A DNA stretch of 64,000 nucleotides from a virus (Duplodnaviria > Heunggongvirae > Uroviricota > Caudoviricetes): IMG/VR virus record IMGVR_UViG_3300028648_000132. One strand, given 5' to 3'. The notes beneath the pieces are model-generated. The model did not search any database. It saw nothing but the letters and a program-made list of their open reading frames with translations, and was not told where the DNA came from. The position numbers and the translations under genes were made by a program. This document shows, one piece after another, positions 33,804 to 62,956 of the stretch. Each line of letters begins with the position of its first letter. Within the stretch, counting starts at the first letter, position 1.

Positions 33804-33819
33804 GTATAGTTAGCTATAC
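33804..33819. promoter_or_regulatory. 16-bp palindrome GTATAGTTAGCTATAC (operator and/or -10 element) immediately 5' of the gene 33464-33793
   Basis: AT-rich dyad in a 68% GC genome. It shares the core AGCTATAC with three other sites (36836, 37257, 37305). Confidence 0.4.
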
Positions 33820-34200: not shown

Positions 34201-35916
34201 CTACAGTCCGGCCGAGAAGTCCGAGATCAACTGCGGGACAGCCGAGTCGAAACCAGACACGTCGAGCTGGCCGGGGTCGGCGGGGTCGGCGATGGTGAAG
34301 CGGGTTGCCGTCATGCCGACAACGATCAGGCGGGCGTTGATGCCCATCTTGTTGCGGTAGTCGCGGAGCGCCTGGTGCGGGTGGACGTCGCCGAACCAGG
34401 TCTCGTTGTCGGTGATGACCACGAACGTGTCGAACTCGCGCTTGGACTGCTGCGCCCACAGCATCGGGAGTGCGCAGTCTGTGGCGCCGAAGCTGAGTCC
34501 GGCGGTGTACCGGCACACGTCGTCGAGGCGACGGCGCGGTGTGATGTCCAGCGGGGTGAGTAGGTGCTGGGACCGGTAGCCGTAGCCCGAGCGCGCGGCC
34601 TGTCGGCCGTCGGTGAAGCCGACGACTTCGTGGTCCGGCTCGACGTTGGCGGTGACGAGCGCGAGCGCGGCTGCGGCCTCGCGGCATGTCAGCGGCATAC
34701 CCGAGATCGCGGCGCCCATGGAGCCGGACACGTCCAGCGCCAGCAGGGTGCGCATGCCCGACGGCTCCACCGCGCCGTAGGCGTTGTAGAACGCAGCGTC
34801 CAGGGCATCCACGACCTTGCGTTCCGGCGTCCAGGTGGAGTCGCCGCGCGCCGAACGCCCGGACGCATAGGTGCGCTGTGCGATCAGGACGTTGACCGGG
34901 TGGACGCGGCCCTTTCGTAGACGGTCGGCGTCCTGGAGCTGAGCAACGACACGATCCAGATATTCACCATGCAGGACCCCATGCCGGGTCAGCCGCGGCA
35001 GTTGGCGCATCAAAGCCGTCTGCGGCAGACCATGCTCAATCAGCGCTTCCCACACAGCCGTGAAGTTGAGCGCGACGTCTGGCAACGCTTCCCAGGGAAG
35101 GCCGTTGCCACGTCGAATGATGCTCACCCATTCCTTGGGTTGGGTGGCGCGCTGGGCGTCCTCGAAGTCCTCGATGATCGCCAGGGGGTGGTCGACCGCC
35201 AGATCGACATTCGGCAGCTTGGGCCGGGAGGCGTTGCGCTCCCCTGCCTTCAACTGCTCGGCGGTGAGGGGCTGAACCTTGCCGATGTAGTCGTTCAGGC
35301 CCTTGCCGACTGCCCAGTTGAAGGCGAGGCGGCGGGCCGGGTCCGCCGTGGCGGGGCCGGACAGGCGTAGGAGGTCCCGGTGCATCCAGCCTTCGCGCTG
35401 CCGGTACTTGACCAGCTGGTAGGCGAGACGGTCGACGGGCTTGTCGAGGTACCAGCCGCCGACGGCGCGCTGCATGGCGCGGCCCCACCCGCGGAACTGC
35501 TCCATGTACTTGACGAACGTGTACAGCTGGGTGCCGGTGCGGGCGACCGTGGGCAGGGCTGCCGCGGCGGCGCGGCGGCCGTCGACGTCCTCTGCTGCTG
35601 CGGCGATAGCGAGGGCGAACAGGGCCGGGTTCTGTCGGGGCGCGCGTCCGGCCACCGATACCTCGACGATGTGCTGGACGAGGTGGACCGGGTCGGCCGC
35701 TGCTGCGCGGAACACCACCGCCGCGGTGTCCTTAGTCAGGTCGGCGGCGTTGGTGTAGTAGGTGCCGCCGTCGGTGCCGAGGGTGAGGAAGCGGTGCAGC
35801 AGCGTCTCGTCGTCGATGGTGAAGGTGTAGCCACCGGCGGAGTTCTTCACCTGCCGGGGGTCCGCCTGCTGCGACTGCGGCGTCTTACGGGTTCCGATAG
35901 TGGTGAGAACGTCCAC
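34201..35916 (-). CDS. rsr: Ro60/Rsr-like ribonucleoprotein (TROVE domain plus C-terminal vWA domain)
   Basis: 571 aa. C-terminal vWA domain with the MIDAS motif LALDVSGSMGAA, and a long helical TROVE-like N-terminal region. GTG start with an AAGGAGA RBS. Immediately adjacent to tRNA-like ncRNA modules, the arrangement described for rsr/Y RNA loci. Confidence 0.8.
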   Translation of the reverse strand: MDVLTTIGTRKTPQSQQADPRQVKNSAGGYTFTIDDETLLHRFLTLGTDGGTYYTNAADLTKDTAAVVFRAAAADPVHLVQHIVEVSVAGRAPRQNPALFALAIAAAAEDVDGRRAAAAALPTVARTGTQLYTFVKYMEQFRGWGRAMQRAVGGWYLDKPVDRLAYQLVKYRQREGWMHRDLLRLSGPATADPARRLAFNWAVGKGLNDYIGKVQPLTAEQLKAGERNASRPKLPNVDLAVDHPLAIIEDFEDAQRATQPKEWVSIIRRGNGLPWEALPDVALNFTAVWEALIEHGLPQTALMRQLPRLTRHGVLHGEYLDRVVAQLQDADRLRKGRVHPVNVLIAQRTYASGRSARGDSTWTPERKVVDALDAAFYNAYGAVEPSGMRTLLALDVSGSMGAAISGMPLTCREAAAALALVTANVEPDHEVVGFTDGRQAARSGYGYRSQHLLTPLDITPRRRLDDVCRYTAGLSFGATDCALPMLWAQQSKREFDTFVVITDNETWFGDVHPHQALRDYRNKMGINARLIVVGMTATRFTIADPADPGQLDVSGFDSAVPQLISDFSAGL

Positions 35917-36168: not shown

Positions 36169-36217
36169 GGGTTGTCTGTCGTGCGCGTAGGTGGTGTGGG
36201 CGTGTGGGGTGCCGACC

Positions 36218-36332
36218 GGCGTATGTGGACAATTGCCTCTACCAATTGGGCTACACCCCGCGAGCGAGGTGGTGGGGCTCGAACCCACACCTGACTGTTT
36301 TGGTAACCGACCTGCGTCCTGTCCACACCGCC
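36218..36332 (-). ncRNA. Y-RNA-like ncRNA module 2 (permuted tRNA-like)
   Basis: Conserved motif, then T-arm GUGGG-UUCGAGC-CCCAC, an acceptor-like hairpin CACCUCG/CGGGGUG closed by a short loop, then UA plus a D-arm-like GCCCAAUUGGUAGAGGC. Closing helix GGCGGUGUGGAC / GUCCACAUACGCC. Confidence 0.5.
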
Positions 36333-36363
36333 TGCGCGCGTGCGTCTGCTGGTGTCTTGAGGT

Positions 36364-36497
36364 GGTGTGAGCGTGTGGGTGTCGTCCGGGTTTTAGCGCT
36401 CTAGGCCGCTGAGCTACAACCACTTTCGTGGCTGGCGGGATTCGAACCCGCGTCTCTCTCATGAAAGGAGATAACCGAACGAAGTCCTGTTCACACC
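36364..36497 (-). ncRNA. Y-RNA-like ncRNA module 3 (permuted tRNA-like; best preserved)
   Basis: Conserved motif, an anticodon-like hairpin UCUCC-UUUCAUG-AGAGA, T-arm GCGGG-UUCGAAU-CCCGC, acceptor 3' strand CAGCCAC, a GAAA loop, acceptor 5' strand GUGGUUG, then UA and a canonical D-arm GCUC-AGCGGCCUA-GAGC. Closing helix GGUGUGAAC / GCUCACACC. Confidence 0.55.
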
Positions 36498-36510
36498 GTG
36501 CTACGTATGG

Positions 36511-36665
36511 AGTTGTGTTGGGTGATGGGGCGAACGTGTGTGTGCTGACCGGGTTTAAGCGCTCTACCAACTGAGCTACAGCCGGGGGTTGGCTGGCGGG
36601 ACTCGAACCCGCGACCTCTCCATTAGCAAGTGGTAACCGATCTGCGTCCTGCTCGCACCATCTGG
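36511..36665 (-). ncRNA. Y-RNA-like ncRNA module 4 (permuted tRNA-like)
   Basis: Conserved motif, T-arm GCGGG-UUCGAGU-CCCGC, an acceptor-like hairpin CAGCC-AACCCCC-GGCUG, then UA and a canonical D-arm GCUC-AGUUGGUA-GAGC. Closing helix GAUGGUGCGAGC / GUUCGCCCCAUC. Confidence 0.5.
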
Positions 36666-36687
36666 TGTTTATGTTGTGGTTTGGGGG

Positions 36688-36808
36688 CGACGTGAACGTG
36701 GTTGGCGCTGGACGGGTTTGGCTCCATTTCCCCGCTTGGCTCGGGGCGTTCTAACTTGAACTACGGGGCGTGGCCCCGAGATAACCGACCTGCATCCTGT
36801 TCACGTCG
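36688..36808 (-). ncRNA. Y-RNA-like ncRNA module 5 (divergent internal hairpins)
   Basis: Perfect 10-bp closing helix CGACGUGAAC / GUUCACGUCG. Carries the conserved motif, but internally has GC hairpins (CUCGGGGC...GCCCCGAG) instead of a clear T/D pair. Confidence 0.4.
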
Positions 36809-36835
36809 TCCGTTGTTTTGTTGTCTGAAAACGAA

Positions 36836-36853
36836 GCTATACCGCGGTATAGC
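36836..36853. promoter_or_regulatory. perfect 18-bp palindrome GCTATACCGCGGTATAGC between the secreted-protein gene and the ncRNA array
   Basis: A hairpin/operator candidate containing the AGCTATAC core. It is followed on the minus strand by a U-rich stretch (UAUAGCUUCGUUUUCAG), so it could act as a terminator for the upstream gene and/or as a promoter/operator for the array. Confidence 0.4.
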
Positions 36854-36907
36854 GGTGCGGCAACAGGATTCCGGGGTGGCTGTATAGCCGCTCGGTAGCC
36901 GCGACCA

Positions 36908-37246
36908 TCACTTTCCGGCGCCAGCGCCTCCGCTCGCCGAGGACCCACCGCTACCTGCGGACCCGCTACCAGCGCTGTTGCCTCCACTTTCACCCGCGCC
37001 TGGACTTGCCGGACCTGTAGGTGGATGGTGTTGGCCCTCAGGGCATTCCGGGTCCTCTGGGGGTTTGTATCCGCCGCCACCTGCTGGGGTGAAGGGTGCG
37101 GGTCGGGCACCCAGGCATGTCTTGGCGTCTGTCGCGGCGTACAGGCAACGCTCTGGGAATGCGGAGGCCGTTGTAGTTGGGAGTGCCGTGAGGGCGGCGA
37201 TGGCGGTAGCAATGAAGGCAATGCGTTTTGCACTAAGGCTTTTCAT
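36908..37246 (-). CDS. small secreted protein (signal peptide, Gly/Ser/Pro-rich)
   Basis: Start at MKSLSAKRIAFIATAIAALTALPTTTASA, a predicted signal peptide. 112 aa. The upstream 111 codons of the track ORF are artefact. Sits next to a divergent promoter region. Confidence 0.55.
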   Translation of the reverse strand: MKSLSAKRIAFIATAIAALTALPTTTASAFPERCLYAATDAKTCLGARPAPFTPAGGGGYKPPEDPECPEGQHHPPTGPASPGAGESGGNSAGSGSAGSGGSSASGGAGAGK

Positions 37247-37256
37247 GACTCGAAAC

Positions 37257-37320
37257 GTATATAGAGCTATACACATAAGCAAGGCTGTTACGGCTTGTTC
37301 TTTCGTATAGTGAGCTATAC
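37257..37320. promoter_or_regulatory. divergent promoter/operator region with two GTATA(T/G)-N4-CTATAC palindromes
   Basis: GTATATAGAGCTATAC at 37257-37272 and GTATAGTGAGCTATAC at 37305-37320, with the shared 10-mer GAGCTATACA. Both lie between the minus-strand secreted-protein gene and the plus-strand island. TATAGT/TATAGC are -10-like. Confidence 0.4.
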
Positions 37321-37330
37321 ATTCTGAGTC

Positions 37331-37582
37331 ATGGCAAGAGTGACACTCACAGCGAAAGCGCGGATGCGCGCCAACAAGCGCCGCGTCATGTCGGCACTCC
37401 GCAACGCCGGTATGCCGCTCCTGGTCGACAACCGCGACGGCATCTGGCGCCTCTATTTCATCGGCACCGACGACACCGGTGTCGAGCTGGAGCTGATCCT
37501 GGTCCCACACGCCACCCAGGACTGGACCTGGGTATGTATCCACGCCATGCCCACCAAGTACCGGAAAGGAGGGGCACAATGA
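37331..37582 (+). CDS. putative BrnT-like (DUF4258-like) toxin
   Basis: 83 aa. N-terminal LTAKARMRANKRRVMSALRNAG resembles the HAxeRMxeRgIs opening of DUF4258/BrnT toxins. First gene of the plus-strand island; its stop overlaps the next ATG (ATGA). Confidence 0.4.
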   Translation: MARVTLTAKARMRANKRRVMSALRNAGMPLLVDNRDGIWRLYFIGTDDTGVELELILVPHATQDWTWVCIHAMPTKYRKGGAQ

Positions 37583-37773
37583 CCCTCATGAGCAGTCACA
37601 GCGAAGCCGACCTCAAGCGCCTCACCTTCGGCGATGACCTGGTCGTCGACGACATCGACCTCGACAAGGACGAGTTCCTTGTCGGCGACGGCGTCCGGCT
37701 GACCAACGACGCGGCAGACAAGATGGCCGATGAGACTTTGGCCGAGGTCCGACGCCAGAACATCCGACCGTGA
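37579..37773 (+). CDS. putative BrnA-like (DUF4415-like) antitoxin
   Basis: 64 aa from MTLMSSHSEADLKRLTFGDDLVVDDIDLDKDEF. The DDIDLDKDEF segment resembles BrnA N-terminal motifs. Translationally coupled to the upstream gene. Confidence 0.35.
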   Translation: MTLMSSHSEADLKRLTFGDDLVVDDIDLDKDEFLVGDGVRLTNDAADKMADETLAEVRRQNIRP

Positions 37774-38105
37774 CCGGCCCTGACGTCGCTGCACCGCGGG
37801 ACATCGTTGCCGACAGCCTCGGTGGTGGATGGCCACAGGCAGATGCTGCACTGGACGCGCTCGACCGCGCCGGATATGCCGTAGTAGCCAAGGTGTGGGT
37901 CGCGCAACTCGAACTGATCGAGCACCGCGGCGGTTGGATCGGCGTCTACGTCACCCCAGAAGGCGCCGCCGCGGCCCTGGTCAAGTGGGCGCGCGGTGTT
38001 GGCGTCCCGATCGAGCACTACGACCCTGCGACCGGGTCAGAAATACTGGACGAACACCCCGAGATAGAAACGTACGGCGTCTCATATGTGGAGGTGGAGC
38101 GATGA
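37770..38105 (+). CDS. hypothetical protein
   Basis: 111-aa ORF in the plus-strand island. Confidence 0.45.
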   Translation: MTGPDVAAPRDIVADSLGGGWPQADAALDALDRAGYAVVAKVWVAQLELIEHRGGWIGVYVTPEGAAAALVKWARGVGVPIEHYDPATGSEILDEHPEIETYGVSYVEVER

Positions 38106-38410
38106 AGTGGACCTGCGAGCGGCCCGGCCGCTGGACCGGCACCGACGGCGCCAACACCGCCACCGCCATACGCATGCGCGAAGGCATGATCGGCTGCAAC
38201 GAATGGATGTGGGTCACTAAGGTCAACGGCGAGCACATCACCAATGCGGATGGGCTCCGCGAGGCGAAGCGGGCTGTGTCCGAGCGACTTAGCGGCACAA
38301 ACCTACATGCCGCGCGACGAGCCGCTGCCGAGCAAGGCGCGGCAATCGGTGAACGTCAACGACTAGGGCTGGCGCCAACCCGTGCGGAGATCACCCGTGC
38401 AGAATCGTGA
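38102..38410 (+). CDS. hypothetical protein
   Basis: ATG at 38102 overlaps the previous stop (ATGA). The upstream 91 codons of the track ORF are Arg-rich artefact. Confidence 0.45.
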   Translation: MKWTCERPGRWTGTDGANTATAIRMREGMIGCNEWMWVTKVNGEHITNADGLREAKRAVSERLSGTNLHAARRAAAEQGAAIGERQRLGLAPTRAEITRAES

Positions 38411-38600
38411 ACTCATAGAGCAGGCCGTGAGCGAATACGGGTGGGCAACTGAGAAACCCACCATCTACGCGCCGATGTTGTACAAGTACACCAAGGCAGG
38501 CCGCCATCCGGTGCTGGTTATCTACGACATCCACGGCGATCTGGACGGCGAGATGATTGTGACGGCCGACGAAATCGTGGCTGAACTGTCCAGCAACTAA
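38397..38600 (+). CDS. hypothetical protein
   Basis: GTG start at 38397 (VQNRELIEQAVSEYGW...). Its end converges on the stop of the minus-strand early operon at 38597. Confidence 0.4.
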   Translation: MQNRELIEQAVSEYGWATEKPTIYAPMLYKYTKAGRHPVLVIYDIHGDLDGEMIVTADEIVAELSSN

Positions 38601-39031
38601 ACGTCATCCGGCGGCCAGTAGATACGGGCGTCCAACCGCTGCTGCTCCTCGGGGGTTGTGGGTGCTGGCGGGTCGTTGTTCCGCATGTAGCGCTCCCACG
38701 CGGAACGGCGGCGAGTCTCGGCGTGGTGCTTCTCAGCGGCCTTCCGGGCGGCGCGTAGGTCGTTGCCGCAGTAGAGGTCCCGGGATGACGTAATAGCGTC
38801 CCAGTCGGTCGACCCTGGCGCGTATTCAGTGATCCAGCAGCGTTTGACTATCTCGGTGGTGGTGTTGGTCGGCGGGTCCCAGAGGGTGTACCCGGTTGTT
38901 CGCGGCAACAGGGTGTAGGTCCCGCCGACTTCGTCGCGGTGGTGGGCGACCCACAACCAGCGGCCCTTGTGCCAACGGTCCTCGACTCGTTTCCATGCCA
39001 GGGTGACGTCGACGAAGGCGATGCCGGTCAT
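38597..39031 (-). CDS. hypothetical protein
   Basis: ATG at 39031 overlaps the upstream stop (ATGA). 144 aa. Last gene of the early operon. Confidence 0.45.
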   Translation of the reverse strand: MTGIAFVDVTLAWKRVEDRWHKGRWLWVAHHRDEVGGTYTLLPRTTGYTLWDPPTNTTTEIVKRCWITEYAPGSTDWDAITSSRDLYCGNDLRAARKAAEKHHAETRRRSAWERYMRNNDPPAPTTPEEQQRLDARIYWPPDDV

Positions 39032-62342: not shown

Positions 62343-62645
62343 ATGACCGTTGCATACGAAACCGGGACTATCCCCCCAATGCGTCTGCGATACCGCCTAC
62401 AGATCGCACGGGAAGAAGCCCAACTAGATCAAAGGCAACTGGCCGACATGATGGGCGTCGGCCGGTCGGTAATTGGCAATTGCGAAAAGGGTCGGACCGT
62501 CCCTAAAAAGATCGTCCTCAACGCCTGGGCATTGGCCTGTGGAGTGCCAGTAAGTTGGCTAGCCGAGGGCGAAGGTGAGCAGCCGCCGGAGGGCGACGGG
62601 CCGTCTGTGGTGCGCCCGAAGGGATTCGAACCCCTAACCTTCTGA
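62343..62645 (+). CDS. immunity repressor (XRE-family HTH), prophage form with its C-terminus encoded across attR inside host tRNA-Arg
   Basis: 100 aa with the HTH LDQRQLADMMGVGRSVIGNCEKGRTV. Transcribed divergently from the cro-like gene. The last ~12 codons (VVRPKGFEPLTF*) are read from the tRNA-Arg gene. Confidence 0.6.
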   Translation: MTVAYETGTIPPMRLRYRLQIAREEAQLDQRQLADMMGVGRSVIGNCEKGRTVPKKIVLNAWALACGVPVSWLAEGEGEQPPEGDGPSVVRPKGFEPLTF

Positions 62646-62683
62646 TCCGTAGTCAGATGCTCTATCCGTTGAGCTACGGGCGC
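62608..62683 (-). tRNA. tRNA-Arg (anticodon ACG), CCA encoded; integration site (attR overlaps its 3' end)
   Basis: Cloverleaf: GCGCCCG-UA-GCUC-AACGGAUA-GAGC-A-UCUGA-CUACGGA-UCAGA-AGGUU-AGGGG-UUCGAAU-CCCUU-CGGGCGC-A-CCA. Confidence 0.9.
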
Positions 62684-62730
62684 TTACTATTCAATTGTTG
62701 CAGGTCAACAGGTTTGGCCTGCAGACCGAC

Positions 62731-62819
62731 GCGGAGGCGAGAGGATTTGAACCTCCGGTCCCCCGTAAAGGGGACAACTCATTAGCAGTGAGTCCCATTC
62801 GGCCGCTCTGGCACGCCTC
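62731..62819 (-). tRNA. tRNA-Ser (anticodon GCU), type II with a long variable arm
   Basis: GGAGGCG acceptor, D-arm GCCAGAGCGGCCGAAUGGGAC, anticodon loop CUGCUAA, and a long variable arm before the T-arm GGAGG-UUCAAAU-CCUCU. Coordinates are approximate to +/-1 nt. Confidence 0.85.
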
Positions 62820-62956
62820 CTGAACTTCCTGAGCGGGACTCCGGACCCATAAAAATGGATCCCGAACCGCCGAGGGCACAGAGTACAGGGCCGCGCGCCC
62901 CAAAGGCAAAGCCGTTGGTCGTCATCGGGCCCCACGTGCCCCGATAGTCTGGTCAC

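What the first reader, a model, noticed from the sequence alone, without database searches (positions are those of the whole stretch)
37247..38600. Oppositely oriented accessory island with a putative BrnT/BrnA-like toxin-antitoxin pair, converging end-to-end with the early operon
Five plus-strand genes interrupt the otherwise minus-strand genome. They are driven from the palindrome-bearing divergent promoter. The first two are translationally coupled (ATGA overlap). They resemble a DUF4258/BrnT-type toxin (N-terminus LTAKARMRANKRRVMSALRNAG) followed by a DUF4415/BrnA-like antitoxin (DDIDLDKDEF...), in the toxin-first order typical of that family. The island's last stop (38600) overlaps the last stop of the ~24 kb leftward early operon (38597) with no intervening terminator. 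Lytic early transcription would therefore collide with island transcription. This is the kind of locus that encodes prophage-mediated defence or addiction.
Basis: inference. Interest (0 to 1): 0.55.

Follow-up and report, generated by a model that had tools for sequence, protein, structure and literature searches.

The report
Prophage toxin-antitoxin pair, truncated antitoxin
This is a real but already annotated toxin-antitoxin gene pair in a Mycobacteroides prophage: the toxin belongs to the BrnT/RelS RNase family, and the new detail is that its antitoxin has lost the usual DNA-binding half.

Summary
Five overlapping plus-strand ORFs (37331-38600) sit inside a minus-strand prophage of Mycobacteroides salmoniphilum (cluster MabK type, about 92% identical to prophiGD43A-5). 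They start at an 84-bp divergent region with two 16-bp palindromes. They end with stop codons overlapping the last gene of the ~24-kb early operon, and no terminator lies between.

Gene 2 is homologous only to the acidic N-terminal half of the ~105-aa antitoxins that normally follow this toxin family. The ribbon-helix-helix DNA-binding domain is absent and has left no remnant. Both genes are under purifying selection.

Genes 3-5 are a variable cassette of unknown function, absent from the close relatives.

The palindrome is not specific to this module. It marks at least six accessory-gene promoters in the related prophage.

GenBank relatives already annotate the pair as "BrnT-like toxin" and "antitoxin", and Dedrick et al. 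2021 mention it. Interest is modest.

The parts
37331..37582 (+). g1: 83-aa basic (pI 10.3) BrnT/RelS-like RelE-fold toxin
37579..37773 (+). g2: 64-aa acidic (pI 4.3) antitoxin, N-terminal neutralising domain only, no RHH. It overlaps g1 by ATGA and is preceded by GGAGG at 37568-37572.
   Evidence: It matches positions 6-55 of a 111-position profile built from partner antitoxins, at 42.7 bits. The partners carry RHH_1 or RHH_5 domains. No RHH remnant was found. pN/pS is 0.14-0.27.
37770..38105 (+). g3: 111-aa acidic protein of unknown function; first gene of the variable cassette
   Evidence: PHROG 30044, unknown function. The only homologues are hypothetical proteins in phages NM241, 32HC and Rem711. 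Absent from prophiGD43A-5 and prophiT37-1.
38102..38410 (+). g4: 102-aa basic protein of unknown function
   Evidence: PHROG 9162 and 30295, unknown function. The N-terminal 63 aa resemble Giles gp46-type hypothetical proteins.
38397..38600 (+). g5: 67-aa (or 72 aa from GTG 38382) acidic protein of unknown function. Its stop overlaps the stop of the convergent gene.
   Evidence: Called as 67 aa in the source genome. No phage homologue. Present in Mycobacteroides genomes.
37305..37320 (.). Palindrome GTATAGTGAGCTATAC, lying in the spacer and overlapping the -10 of the predicted toxin promoter. The predicted promoter is -35 TTGTTC at 37295-37300 and -10 TACATT at 37318-37323, followed by 7 nt and then the ATG, which implies a leaderless mRNA.
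   Evidence: The arms are conserved and the central 4 nt vary in relatives. The promoter reading is my inference from the sequence.
37257..37272 (.). Palindrome GTATATAGAGCTATAC in the predicted promoter of the divergent minus-strand ORF. On the minus strand: -35 TTGCTT at 37282-37277 and -10 TACGTT at 37259-37254, followed by 7 nt and then the ATG at 37246.
36908..37246 (-). Divergent 112-aa ORF with a signal-peptide-like N-terminus, 4 Cys and a Gly/Ser/Pro-rich tail. It is unannotated in the relatives and in the source genome.
   Evidence: The ORF is intact in all three prophages, with a 9-nt in-frame indel in T37-1. GC3 is only 0.56, so whether it codes is uncertain.
38597..39031 (-). Last gene (144 aa) of the ~24-kb early operon, converging on the island
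   Evidence: It is homologous to prophiGD43A-5 gene 48.
33804..33819 (.). Third copy of the palindrome (GTATAGTTAGCTATAC), 10 nt upstream of the ATG (33793) of a minus-strand 109-aa gene that heads a long gene run

Best explanation
g1-g2 is a type II toxin-antitoxin module carried by a cluster-MabK-type prophage of Mycobacteroides.

Toxin. g1 is a small basic RelE-superfamily RNase-fold toxin of the BrnT/RelS lineage. By homology with M. tuberculosis RelS, which cuts 16S rRNA inside the anti-Shine-Dalgarno sequence, it most likely arrests translation by cleaving RNA. The exact target is not shown here.

Antitoxin. g2 is the acidic toxin-neutralising N-terminal domain of the family's usual antitoxin. 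It is translated from a strong ribosome-binding site that is coupled to the toxin's stop codon, so it is probably made in excess and blocks the toxin by direct binding. It has lost the C-terminal ribbon-helix-helix domain that related antitoxins carry, so it probably cannot repress its own operon.

Regulation. The toxin promoter carries a 16-bp palindrome that is shared with other accessory-gene promoters of the prophage. The predicted promoter has a -35 element, a 17-nt spacer, a TACATT -10 element and then 7 nt before the ATG, which implies a leaderless mRNA. This suggests that a separate prophage or host regulator controls transcription.

Passenger genes and role. g3-g5 are passenger genes in a recombination-prone slot between the module and the converging early operon. 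The likely biological role is defence against other phages, or stabilisation of the prophage.

Shown here: the gene structure, the fold and family of the toxin, the truncation of the antitoxin, the distribution of the palindrome, and purifying selection.

Inferred: toxicity, neutralisation, RNA target, promoter and leaderless start, the regulator, and the role.
For: Toxin
- PHROG 'toxin' at E 2e-35.
- AF2 pLDDT 88.3, with a strand-helix-helix-four-strand-helix order of elements.
- A profile of 77 family representatives hits RelS (9sdc_C) at E 3.4e-8. hhalign gives 95.9% probability, and the SARKH and IHA motifs align.
- RelS is experimentally a toxin that cleaves 16S rRNA and is neutralised by its downstream partner (PMC13284704).

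Antitoxin
- In 39 of 43 related loci the toxin is followed by a ~100-127-aa protein with an acidic N-domain, an RRRNLVPGRKSLSG-like linker and an RHH domain. The two genes often overlap by 4 nt.
- g2 aligns to profile positions 6-55 only, at 42.7 bits and up to 52% identity. It stops at RRQNIRP, exactly where the linker begins.
- No RHH remnant exists in any frame of the window or of the two relatives.

Selection and conservation
- pN/pS is 0.05-0.11 for g1 and 0.14-0.27 for g2.
- The two proteins have opposite charge: pI 10.3 for g1 and 4.3 for g2.
- The pair is conserved in hundreds of Mycobacteroides contigs.

Palindrome
- Three copies in the window against 0.28 expected, each exactly 10 nt before an ATG.
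- Half-sites are conserved and the central 4 nt vary between prophages.
- prophiGD43A-5 has six copies, all intergenic, and none in the 20-kb stretch of the early operon that was searched.
Against: - Two of the four residues essential for RelS toxicity differ: K9 corresponds to M12 and H10 to R13. His is found at that column in 57 of 77 family members and Arg in 12. Activity and target may therefore differ, or activity may be lost.
- There is no Pfam, NCBIfam or PADLOC hit for either protein.
- The antitoxin modelled alone is low-confidence (pLDDT 54), and no model of the complex could be made.
- The consensus promoter scan found no promoter in the region. The promoter and the leaderless start are my own reading of the sequence.
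- Dedrick et al. report that most of prophiGD43A-5 outside the polymorphic-toxin locus is transcriptionally silent in the lysogen. Lysogenic expression of this module is therefore unproven.
Confidence: 0.68

Rival explanations
1. The module is a decaying, non-toxic remnant. The toxin has lost catalytic residues, the antitoxin has lost its DNA-binding half, and the pair persists only as hitch-hiking prophage DNA.
For: K9/H10 of RelS correspond to M12/R13. The RHH domain is deleted, and the deletion ends within ~10 nt of a recombination junction. The operon is flanked by a cassette in flux.
Against: Both ORFs are intact and under purifying selection. They are conserved at 94-100% identity in hundreds of contigs across M. 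abscessus, M. chelonae and M. salmoniphilum. The His-to-Arg change is shared with Gordonia phage and G. soli homologues that keep a full-length RHH antitoxin, so it is a subfamily trait and not decay. H71 and R78 are conserved.
Confidence: 0.17
2. The toxin is a lytic-cycle tool and not a lysogen function. On this view the module is switched on together with other palindrome-bearing promoters after induction. It then helps shut off host translation. Convergent early transcription and the antitoxin tune the timing.
For: One palindrome heads the long gene-55-onwards run that leads towards the packaging genes. Most of the related prophage is reported silent in lysogens. The island lies among early lytic genes.
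Against: Another palindrome lies upstream of the WXG/polymorphic-toxin/immunity operon, which is expressed in the lysogen. Other M. abscessus prophage toxin-antitoxin pairs in the same kind of position are strongly transcribed in lysogens. The orientation opposite to the lytic operons is typical of lysogenically expressed accessory genes (established knowledge).
Confidence: 0.1
3. g1-g2 is not a poison-antidote pair. Instead it is an RNA-processing accessory linked to the adjacent Ro/Y-RNA module, for example a nuclease with its regulator acting on the phage's tRNA-like or Y-like RNAs.
For: The island lies ~700 bp from a cluster of YrlA-like and tRNA-like RNAs and a TROVE/Ro gene. The toxin has an RNase fold.
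Against: Homologous toxin-antitoxin pairs occur in many actinobacterial chromosomes and in Gordonia phages without any Ro gene nearby. The architecture is that of a canonical type II module.
Confidence: 0.03

Closest known systems
prophiGD43A-5 genes 50/49 and prophiT37-1 genes 47/46 (GenBank MW584167, OQ417969; Dedrick et al. 2021, PMC8092301)
   Same: This is the same module. The toxin is 98-99% identical and the antitoxin 89-97% identical. The position and opposite orientation among early genes match, as do the palindromes. The genes are annotated 'BrnT-like toxin' and 'antitoxin', and the paper mentions the pair as a toxin-antitoxin system transcribed opposite to the early lytic genes.
   Different: The window carries three extra downstream genes (37784-38637) that those prophages lack. 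The published annotation starts the toxin at the internal GTG. It does not note the missing RHH domain, the link to RelS, or the shared palindrome.
RelS-RelI (Rv2663-Rv2664) of M. tuberculosis, PDB 9SDC (PMC13284704)
   Same: The toxin belongs to the same family: profile E 3.4e-8 and hhalign 95.9%. Both are small, with the toxin gene first. In both, the antitoxin has no demonstrated DNA binding and neutralises through acidic residues lying across the basic face of the toxin (RelI D8 and D12). In RelS the residues H64 and R69/K71 are needed for toxicity, and their counterparts are conserved here (H71, K76/R78).
   Different: RelI is an unrelated 85-aa HTH/ClpC2-like protein, and g2 shows no similarity to it. 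RelS K9 and H10, both essential, correspond to M12 and R13 here. Pairwise similarity is limited to 21 residues. RelS-RelI is chromosomal, whereas this module is in a prophage.
BrnT-BrnA of Brucella abortus (PDB 3U97) and the Salmonella homologue 7VD7
   Different: Identity is 12-15%. There is no Pfam BrnT_toxin or BrnA_antitoxin match. The antitoxin here lacks the RHH domain altogether.
Gordonia phage Eyre gp31/gp30, PhrostedPhlake gp39/gp38, and chromosomal pairs in Actinomycetota (loci L005-L045)
   Same: The toxin is 62-65% identical and has the same ARxR motif in place of ARKH. The antitoxin N-domain is homologous. The genes often overlap by 4 nt. In the two phages the pair lies close to the integrase and immunity repressor genes, oriented opposite to the tail genes beyond it.
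   Different: Their antitoxins are full length (~100-127 aa) with a C-terminal RHH domain.
Toxin-antitoxin systems whose antitoxin lacks a DNA-binding domain and that are regulated by a separate protein (paaR2-paaA2-parE2; omega-epsilon-zeta). This comparison is from my own knowledge.
   Same: The antitoxin is reduced to a neutralising peptide, and transcriptional control is expected from another protein.
   Different: No regulator gene is part of the operon here. g3-g5 are not conserved with the module. The proteins are unrelated in sequence. The regulator is unidentified.

Membership tests
BrnT/RelS-like toxins (RelE superfamily) | RelE/RNase-T1-like fold: an N-terminal strand and helices packed on a four-stranded antiparallel sheet | tested here: met
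BrnT/RelS-like toxins (RelE superfamily) | Significant sequence relationship to an experimentally characterised member | tested here: met
   The profile of 77 representatives hits RelS (9sdc_C) at E 3.4e-8 and 36.4 bits. hhalign gives 95.9% probability and E 5e-9 over 63 columns.
BrnT/RelS-like toxins (RelE superfamily) | Match to Pfam BrnT_toxin (PF04365) above the gathering score | tested here: not met
   g1 has no hit at E<=1, and none of the 77 family members hits at E<=0.01. RelS itself reaches only 13.2 bits against a cut-off of 34.5.
BrnT/RelS-like toxins (RelE superfamily) | Residues essential for RelS toxicity (K9, H10, H64, R69) | tested here: inconclusive
   H64 corresponds to H71 (His in 75 of 77 members). 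R69/K71 correspond to K76/R78 (Arg at R78 in 57 of 77). However, K9 corresponds to M12 and H10 to R13, where 57 of 77 members have His and 12 have Arg.
BrnT/RelS-like toxins (RelE superfamily) | Growth arrest on expression, relieved by the adjacent gene; RNA cleavage | not testable with these tools
   This needs expression in mycobacteria and mapping of RNA ends.
DUF4258 (PF14076) | Match to the Pfam model | tested here: not met
   g1 has no hit. Only sub-threshold hits appear among the 77 members: one at E 0.0033, and P0046 at E 0.014 and 16.1 bits against a cut-off of 25.
BrnA-type antitoxin (DUF4415, PF14384) | C-terminal ribbon-helix-helix DNA-binding domain | tested here: not met
   g2 covers only positions 6-55 of the 111-position partner profile. 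The RHH portion of that profile (about positions 56-111) hits RHH proteins in the PDB and Pfam RHH_1 in 17 of 31 partners. No RHH remnant exists in any frame.
BrnA-type antitoxin (DUF4415, PF14384) | Match to the Pfam BrnA_antitoxin model | tested here: not met
   g2 has no hit. None of the 31 partner antitoxins hits at E<=0.01.
Antitoxins partnered with this toxin family in Actinomycetota | Homologous acidic N-terminal domain (D-[VI]-D-L-D ... G-x-R-L-T ... A-E-x-L-A-E-V-R-R-R-N-L), encoded immediately downstream of the toxin | tested here: met
   42.7 bits against a profile built without g2. Identity reaches 52%. g1 and g2 overlap by ATGA.
Three-component toxin-antitoxin systems with a separate regulator (paaR2-paaA2-parE2, omega-epsilon-zeta) | A dedicated regulator gene within the operon | tested here: not met
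   g3-g5 have no DNA-binding domain hits and are absent from relatives that keep the module and its palindromes.

The most novel reading that the evidence does not exclude
The module may be a RelS-type toxin-antitoxin system that has given up self-regulation and is wired into a prophage-wide set of accessory-gene promoters sharing one palindrome.

The toxin would be made from a leaderless mRNA, while the antitoxin depends on a strong Shine-Dalgarno site. If the toxin removes the anti-Shine-Dalgarno end of 16S rRNA as RelS does, its activity would cut off synthesis of its own antitoxin. It would spare its own mRNA and the other leaderless accessory-gene mRNAs. That would make a self-locking switch that reprograms translation towards leaderless prophage genes. 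The neighbouring Ro/Y-RNA module could then belong to the same theme of RNA damage and repair.
Probability: 0.08. Interest if true: 0.7.

Novelty: new member of a known kind. Interest (0 to 1): 0.3.

Why it matters
The practical gains are three.

- **A link to RelS.** The analysis ties a widespread 'hypothetical protein' pair of M. abscessus-complex prophages to RelS. RefSeq names neither gene. RelS is the recently characterised toxin that cleaves 16S rRNA.
- **A family-wide antitoxin pattern.** Across Actinomycetota the RelS family is normally paired with an antitoxin made of an acidic N-domain and an RHH domain. M. tuberculosis RelI and the truncated Mycobacteroides version are both departures from that pattern.
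- **A candidate shared regulator.** The 16-bp operator is common to the toxin-antitoxin module, the polymorphic-toxin locus and other accessory genes. Prophage-encoded toxin-antitoxin systems influence phage susceptibility, which matters for phage therapy of M. abscessus.

None of this overturns current understanding.

Tried and rejected
- **Family libraries.** Pfam, NCBIfam and PADLOC scans of all island proteins found nothing meaningful.
- **PDB by sequence.** Searches with the single toxin sequence and with the six-sequence profile were uninformative. Only the 77-sequence profile reached RelS.
- **Viral fold library.** The fold search against BFVD gave nothing.
- **AlphaFold database.** The clustered AlphaFold library (afdb50) was unavailable.
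- **Locus search.** The 77-sequence alignment was too diverse for the locus search, so I used a 14-sequence subset instead.
- **Antitoxin against solved structures.** The antitoxin profile found neither RelI nor BrnA.
- **Antitoxin model.** The antitoxin folded alone with low confidence (pLDDT 54), so I did not use the model.
- **RHH remnant.** A search for an RHH domain or remnant in all six frames of the window and both relatives was negative.
- **g3.** Only one near-identical homologue turned up in the large protein database, so no useful model could be built.
- **g4.** Similarity between g4 and an unannotated ORF in prophiGD43A-5 is marginal (E 0.015) and I make no claim from it. A cluster member labelled DUF2188 did not match that family in Pfam.
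- **Promoter scan.** The consensus scan found no promoter, so the promoter model rests on my manual reading.
- **A rejected idea.** I considered that g3 might supply the missing DNA-binding function. I rejected this because relatives keep the truncated antitoxin and the palindromes without g3.
Full report
**Source and setting.** The window is an integrated prophage of Mycobacteroides. All five island proteins are found with exactly these sequences in M. salmoniphilum CCUG62472 (GCA_004366875.1, contig PECJ01000008.1). The DNA is about 92% identical to the cluster MabK prophages prophiGD43A-5 and prophiT37-1 of M. abscessus, in reverse orientation. In those records genes 2-48 form a 24.2-kb early operon. 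It ends head-on against a two- or three-gene block on the other strand, annotated 'BrnT-like toxin' and 'antitoxin'. Dedrick et al. 2021 list prophiGD43A-5 among prophages whose toxin-antitoxin system lies within early lytic genes and is transcribed on the opposite strand (PMC8092301).

**The observation.**
- There are five plus-strand ORFs from 37331 to 38600, with ATGA, GTGA and ATGA overlaps. An independent gene call lists the same five genes, and their GC3 of 0.70-0.85 is typical of coding sequence here.
- The final TAA (38598-38600) overlaps the stop of the converging 144-aa gene (38597-38599).
- No terminator-like site lies at the junction, and the junction RNA folds no better than shuffled sequence (z = 0.2 and 0.4).
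- The same stop-to-stop overlap occurs in prophiT37-1 with a different last gene. In prophiGD43A-5 an unannotated plus ORF overlaps the converging gene by 47 nt. End-to-end convergence is therefore a recurrent feature of this slot.

**The toxin.** g1 has no Pfam, NCBIfam or PADLOC match, but it matches PHROG 36779 'toxin' at E 2e-35.
- An exhaustive HMMER search found 123 cluster representatives. Their alignment shows three motifs: S-A-R-K/R-H, G-x-D-D-R-G-x-E-L-E-I and I-H-A-M-P-T-x-Y-R.
- The 77-sequence profile hits a single PDB sequence, 9sdc_C, at E 3.4e-8; hhalign gives 95.9%. 9SDC is RelS (Rv2663) of M. tuberculosis. That work describes RelS as a BrnT-like toxin of the RelE superfamily that cleaves 16S rRNA between C1520 and U1521 in the anti-Shine-Dalgarno sequence. 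K9, H10, H64 and R69 are essential for its toxicity (PMC13284704).
- In g1 the counterparts are M12, R13, H71 and K76/R78. At the H10 column 57 of 77 family members have His and 12 have Arg. The Arg variant is shared with Gordonia phage and G. soli homologues.
- The family lies between two Pfam models without reaching either. RelS scores 13 bits on BrnT_toxin, and one member scores 16 bits on DUF4258.
- The label 'BrnT-like' is therefore justified by fold and by homology to RelS. Membership of the Pfam families is not met, and the catalytic set is only half conserved.

**The antitoxin.** g2 has no library match. It shows no similarity to RelI or to any solved antitoxin.
- Context resolved what it is. 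I collected 41 chromosomal loci from Actinomycetota and two Gordonia phages that encode relatives of the toxin.
- In 39 of these 43 loci the toxin is followed by a protein of ~100-127 aa, often with a 4-nt overlap. That protein has an acidic N-terminal domain, a linker resembling RRRNLVPGRKSLSG and a C-terminal ribbon-helix-helix domain. Pfam RHH_1 matches 17 of 31 of them and RHH_5 matches 13, but none matches BrnA_antitoxin. The C-terminal part of their profile hits RHH repressors and antitoxins in the PDB.
- g2 aligns to the N-terminal domain only: profile positions 6-55 of 111, 42.7 bits, up to 52% identity. It ends at RRQNIRP, exactly where the linker starts.
- No trace of the RHH domain is found in any frame of the window or of the two relatives.
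- Homology between the window and the relatives breaks about 10 nt after the g2 stop. The truncation point therefore coincides with a recombination junction.
- The truncated form is conserved at 86-100% identity in many Mycobacteroides genomes, plus one 63%-identical member. Both genes show purifying selection: pN/pS is 0.05-0.11 for g1 and 0.14-0.27 for g2, from small counts.
- The two proteins have opposite charge, pI 10.3 and 4.3. g2 modelled alone gives a low-confidence structure with a single C-terminal helix. That would fit a domain that folds on binding, but it is not evidence for it.

**The rest of the island.** The stretch 37784-38637 (g3-g5) is absent from both relatives. They carry 351 and 231 bp of other sequence there. 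g3 and g4 have only 'hypothetical protein' relatives in a few mycobacteriophages, and g5 has none. None of the three has a domain hit. I regard them as passengers in a variable slot, not as parts of the toxin-antitoxin module.

**Promoter and palindromes.** The 84-bp divergent region holds two 16-bp palindromes with the pattern GTATAG-N4-CTATAC.
- A third copy lies at 33804-33819. That makes three copies in the window against 0.28 expected.
- Each copy ends exactly 10 nt before an ATG: the toxin, an unannotated 112-aa ORF that looks secreted, and a 109-aa gene that heads a long run of genes.
- Across the three prophages the half-sites are invariant while the central four bases differ, as expected for the binding site of a dimeric protein.
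- Read by hand, each site fits one layout: a -35 element (TTGTTC, TTGCTT or TCGACA), a 17-nt spacer, a -10 element TAC(A/G)(T/G)T, and then 7 nt before the ATG. This is the geometry of a mycobacterial leaderless mRNA, with the palindrome filling the spacer. It is inference; the consensus scan found no promoter.
- The complete prophiGD43A-5 record has six copies, all intergenic. The three additional copies lie upstream of gene 109, of the gene-113 / WXG / polymorphic toxin / immunity operon, and of gene 115. The 20-kb stretch of the early operon that I searched has none.
- The polymorphic-toxin locus of that prophage is reported to be expressed in the lysogen from prophage promoters.
- The palindrome is therefore not an operator specific to the toxin-antitoxin module. 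It marks a class of accessory-gene promoters that probably share one regulator, still unidentified. Since the antitoxin lacks a DNA-binding domain, this fits control of the module by the prophage and not by itself.

**Mechanism.** The most likely picture is a working type II module. The toxin is translated from a leaderless mRNA. The antitoxin is translated from GGAGG 6 nt upstream of its ATG, coupled to the toxin's stop codon, and blocks the toxin by direct binding. The toxin inhibits translation by cutting RNA, possibly rRNA as RelS does. Transcription is set by a regulator that acts on the shared palindrome. When the 24-kb early operon fires it would read antisense through the island, because nothing stops it. 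That could lower synthesis of the labile antitoxin and release the toxin. This step is speculation. Toxicity, neutralisation, target, start site, regulator and biological role are all untested.

**Rivals.** A decaying remnant is the main alternative, given the changed K9/H10 positions and the lost RHH domain. Purifying selection, wide conservation, and the fact that the Arg variant also occurs with full-length antitoxins argue against it. A lytic-phase role and a link to the neighbouring Ro/Y-RNA module are possible but weakly supported.

**Verdict.** The finding is real and mostly correctly interpreted, but the module is already annotated and mentioned in the literature. Three points add to that record: the assignment to the RelS family, the truncated antitoxin without an RHH domain, and the shared promoter palindrome. 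These make it an interesting member of a known kind and not something new in kind.

Noticed in passing
window 34201-35916 (-) and 36210-36640 (-): A Ro/TROVE-type RNA-binding protein gene is followed by an array of Y-RNA-like and tRNA-like elements. Rfam YrlA hits lie at 36527-36640 (43 bits, E 8.5e-8, below the gathering score), 36398-36454 and 36210-36313. A tRNA-model hit lies at 36427-36585. ARAGORN calls no tRNA there, although the relative annotates a tRNA-Thr. The direct repeat 36634-36670 / 36782-36818 (76%) suggests a further degenerate unit.
   Followed up: partly
window 36908-37246 (-): This is an unannotated 112-aa ORF. It has a signal-peptide-like N-terminus, four Cys and a Gly/Ser/Pro-rich tail, and is transcribed divergently from the toxin from a mirror-image promoter. 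It is intact in all three prophages, with a 9-nt in-frame indel in one. It is missing from GenBank and RefSeq annotations, and its GC3 is atypical at 0.56.
   Followed up: partly
window 33804-33819; L053 22102-22117, 26201-26216, 26657-26672 (prophiGD43A-5): The palindrome GTATAG-N4-CTATAC marks six intergenic promoter-like sites in the MabK prophage. One lies upstream of the lysogenically expressed WXG/polymorphic-toxin/immunity operon, where it forms a 22-bp perfect palindrome. Four of the six are 7-10 nt from an ATG, which suggests leaderless mRNAs. A short TetR-like HTH gene next to the integrase (gene 116, outside the window) is a speculative candidate regulator.
   Followed up: partly
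window 36836-36853: An 18-bp perfect palindrome, GCTATACCGCGGTATAGC, is built from the same half-sites in swapped order. On the minus strand it is followed by TTCGTTTTC, just downstream of the 112-aa ORF. It looks like a terminator, or possibly another binding site. A further half-site lies at 36882-36888.
   Followed up: no
window 37784-38637; L001 5085-5435; L002 5058-5288: The slot between the antitoxin and the converging early operon holds different cargo in each prophage: three genes, an unannotated 84-aa ORF, or a 53-aa gene. The left junction is ~10 nt after the antitoxin stop. In every case the last plus-strand ORF abuts or overlaps the 3' end of the converging gene. g3, g4 and g5 alternate acidic, basic and acidic (pI 4.4, 9.8, 4.6).
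   Followed up: partly
window 37331 versus GenBank starts (L001 4641, L002 4632): The published annotations start the toxin at an internal GTG (80 aa). The ATG at 37331, 10 nt after the palindrome, gives 83 aa and fits a leaderless start. Some genomes carry an upstream extension to 95 aa (P0001).
   Followed up: no
window 62608-62820 and right end: Host tRNA-Arg and tRNA-Ser genes lie at the prophage boundary. The related prophage integrates at a tRNA site (attB-1), and its attP lies inside the immunity repressor gene.
   Followed up: no
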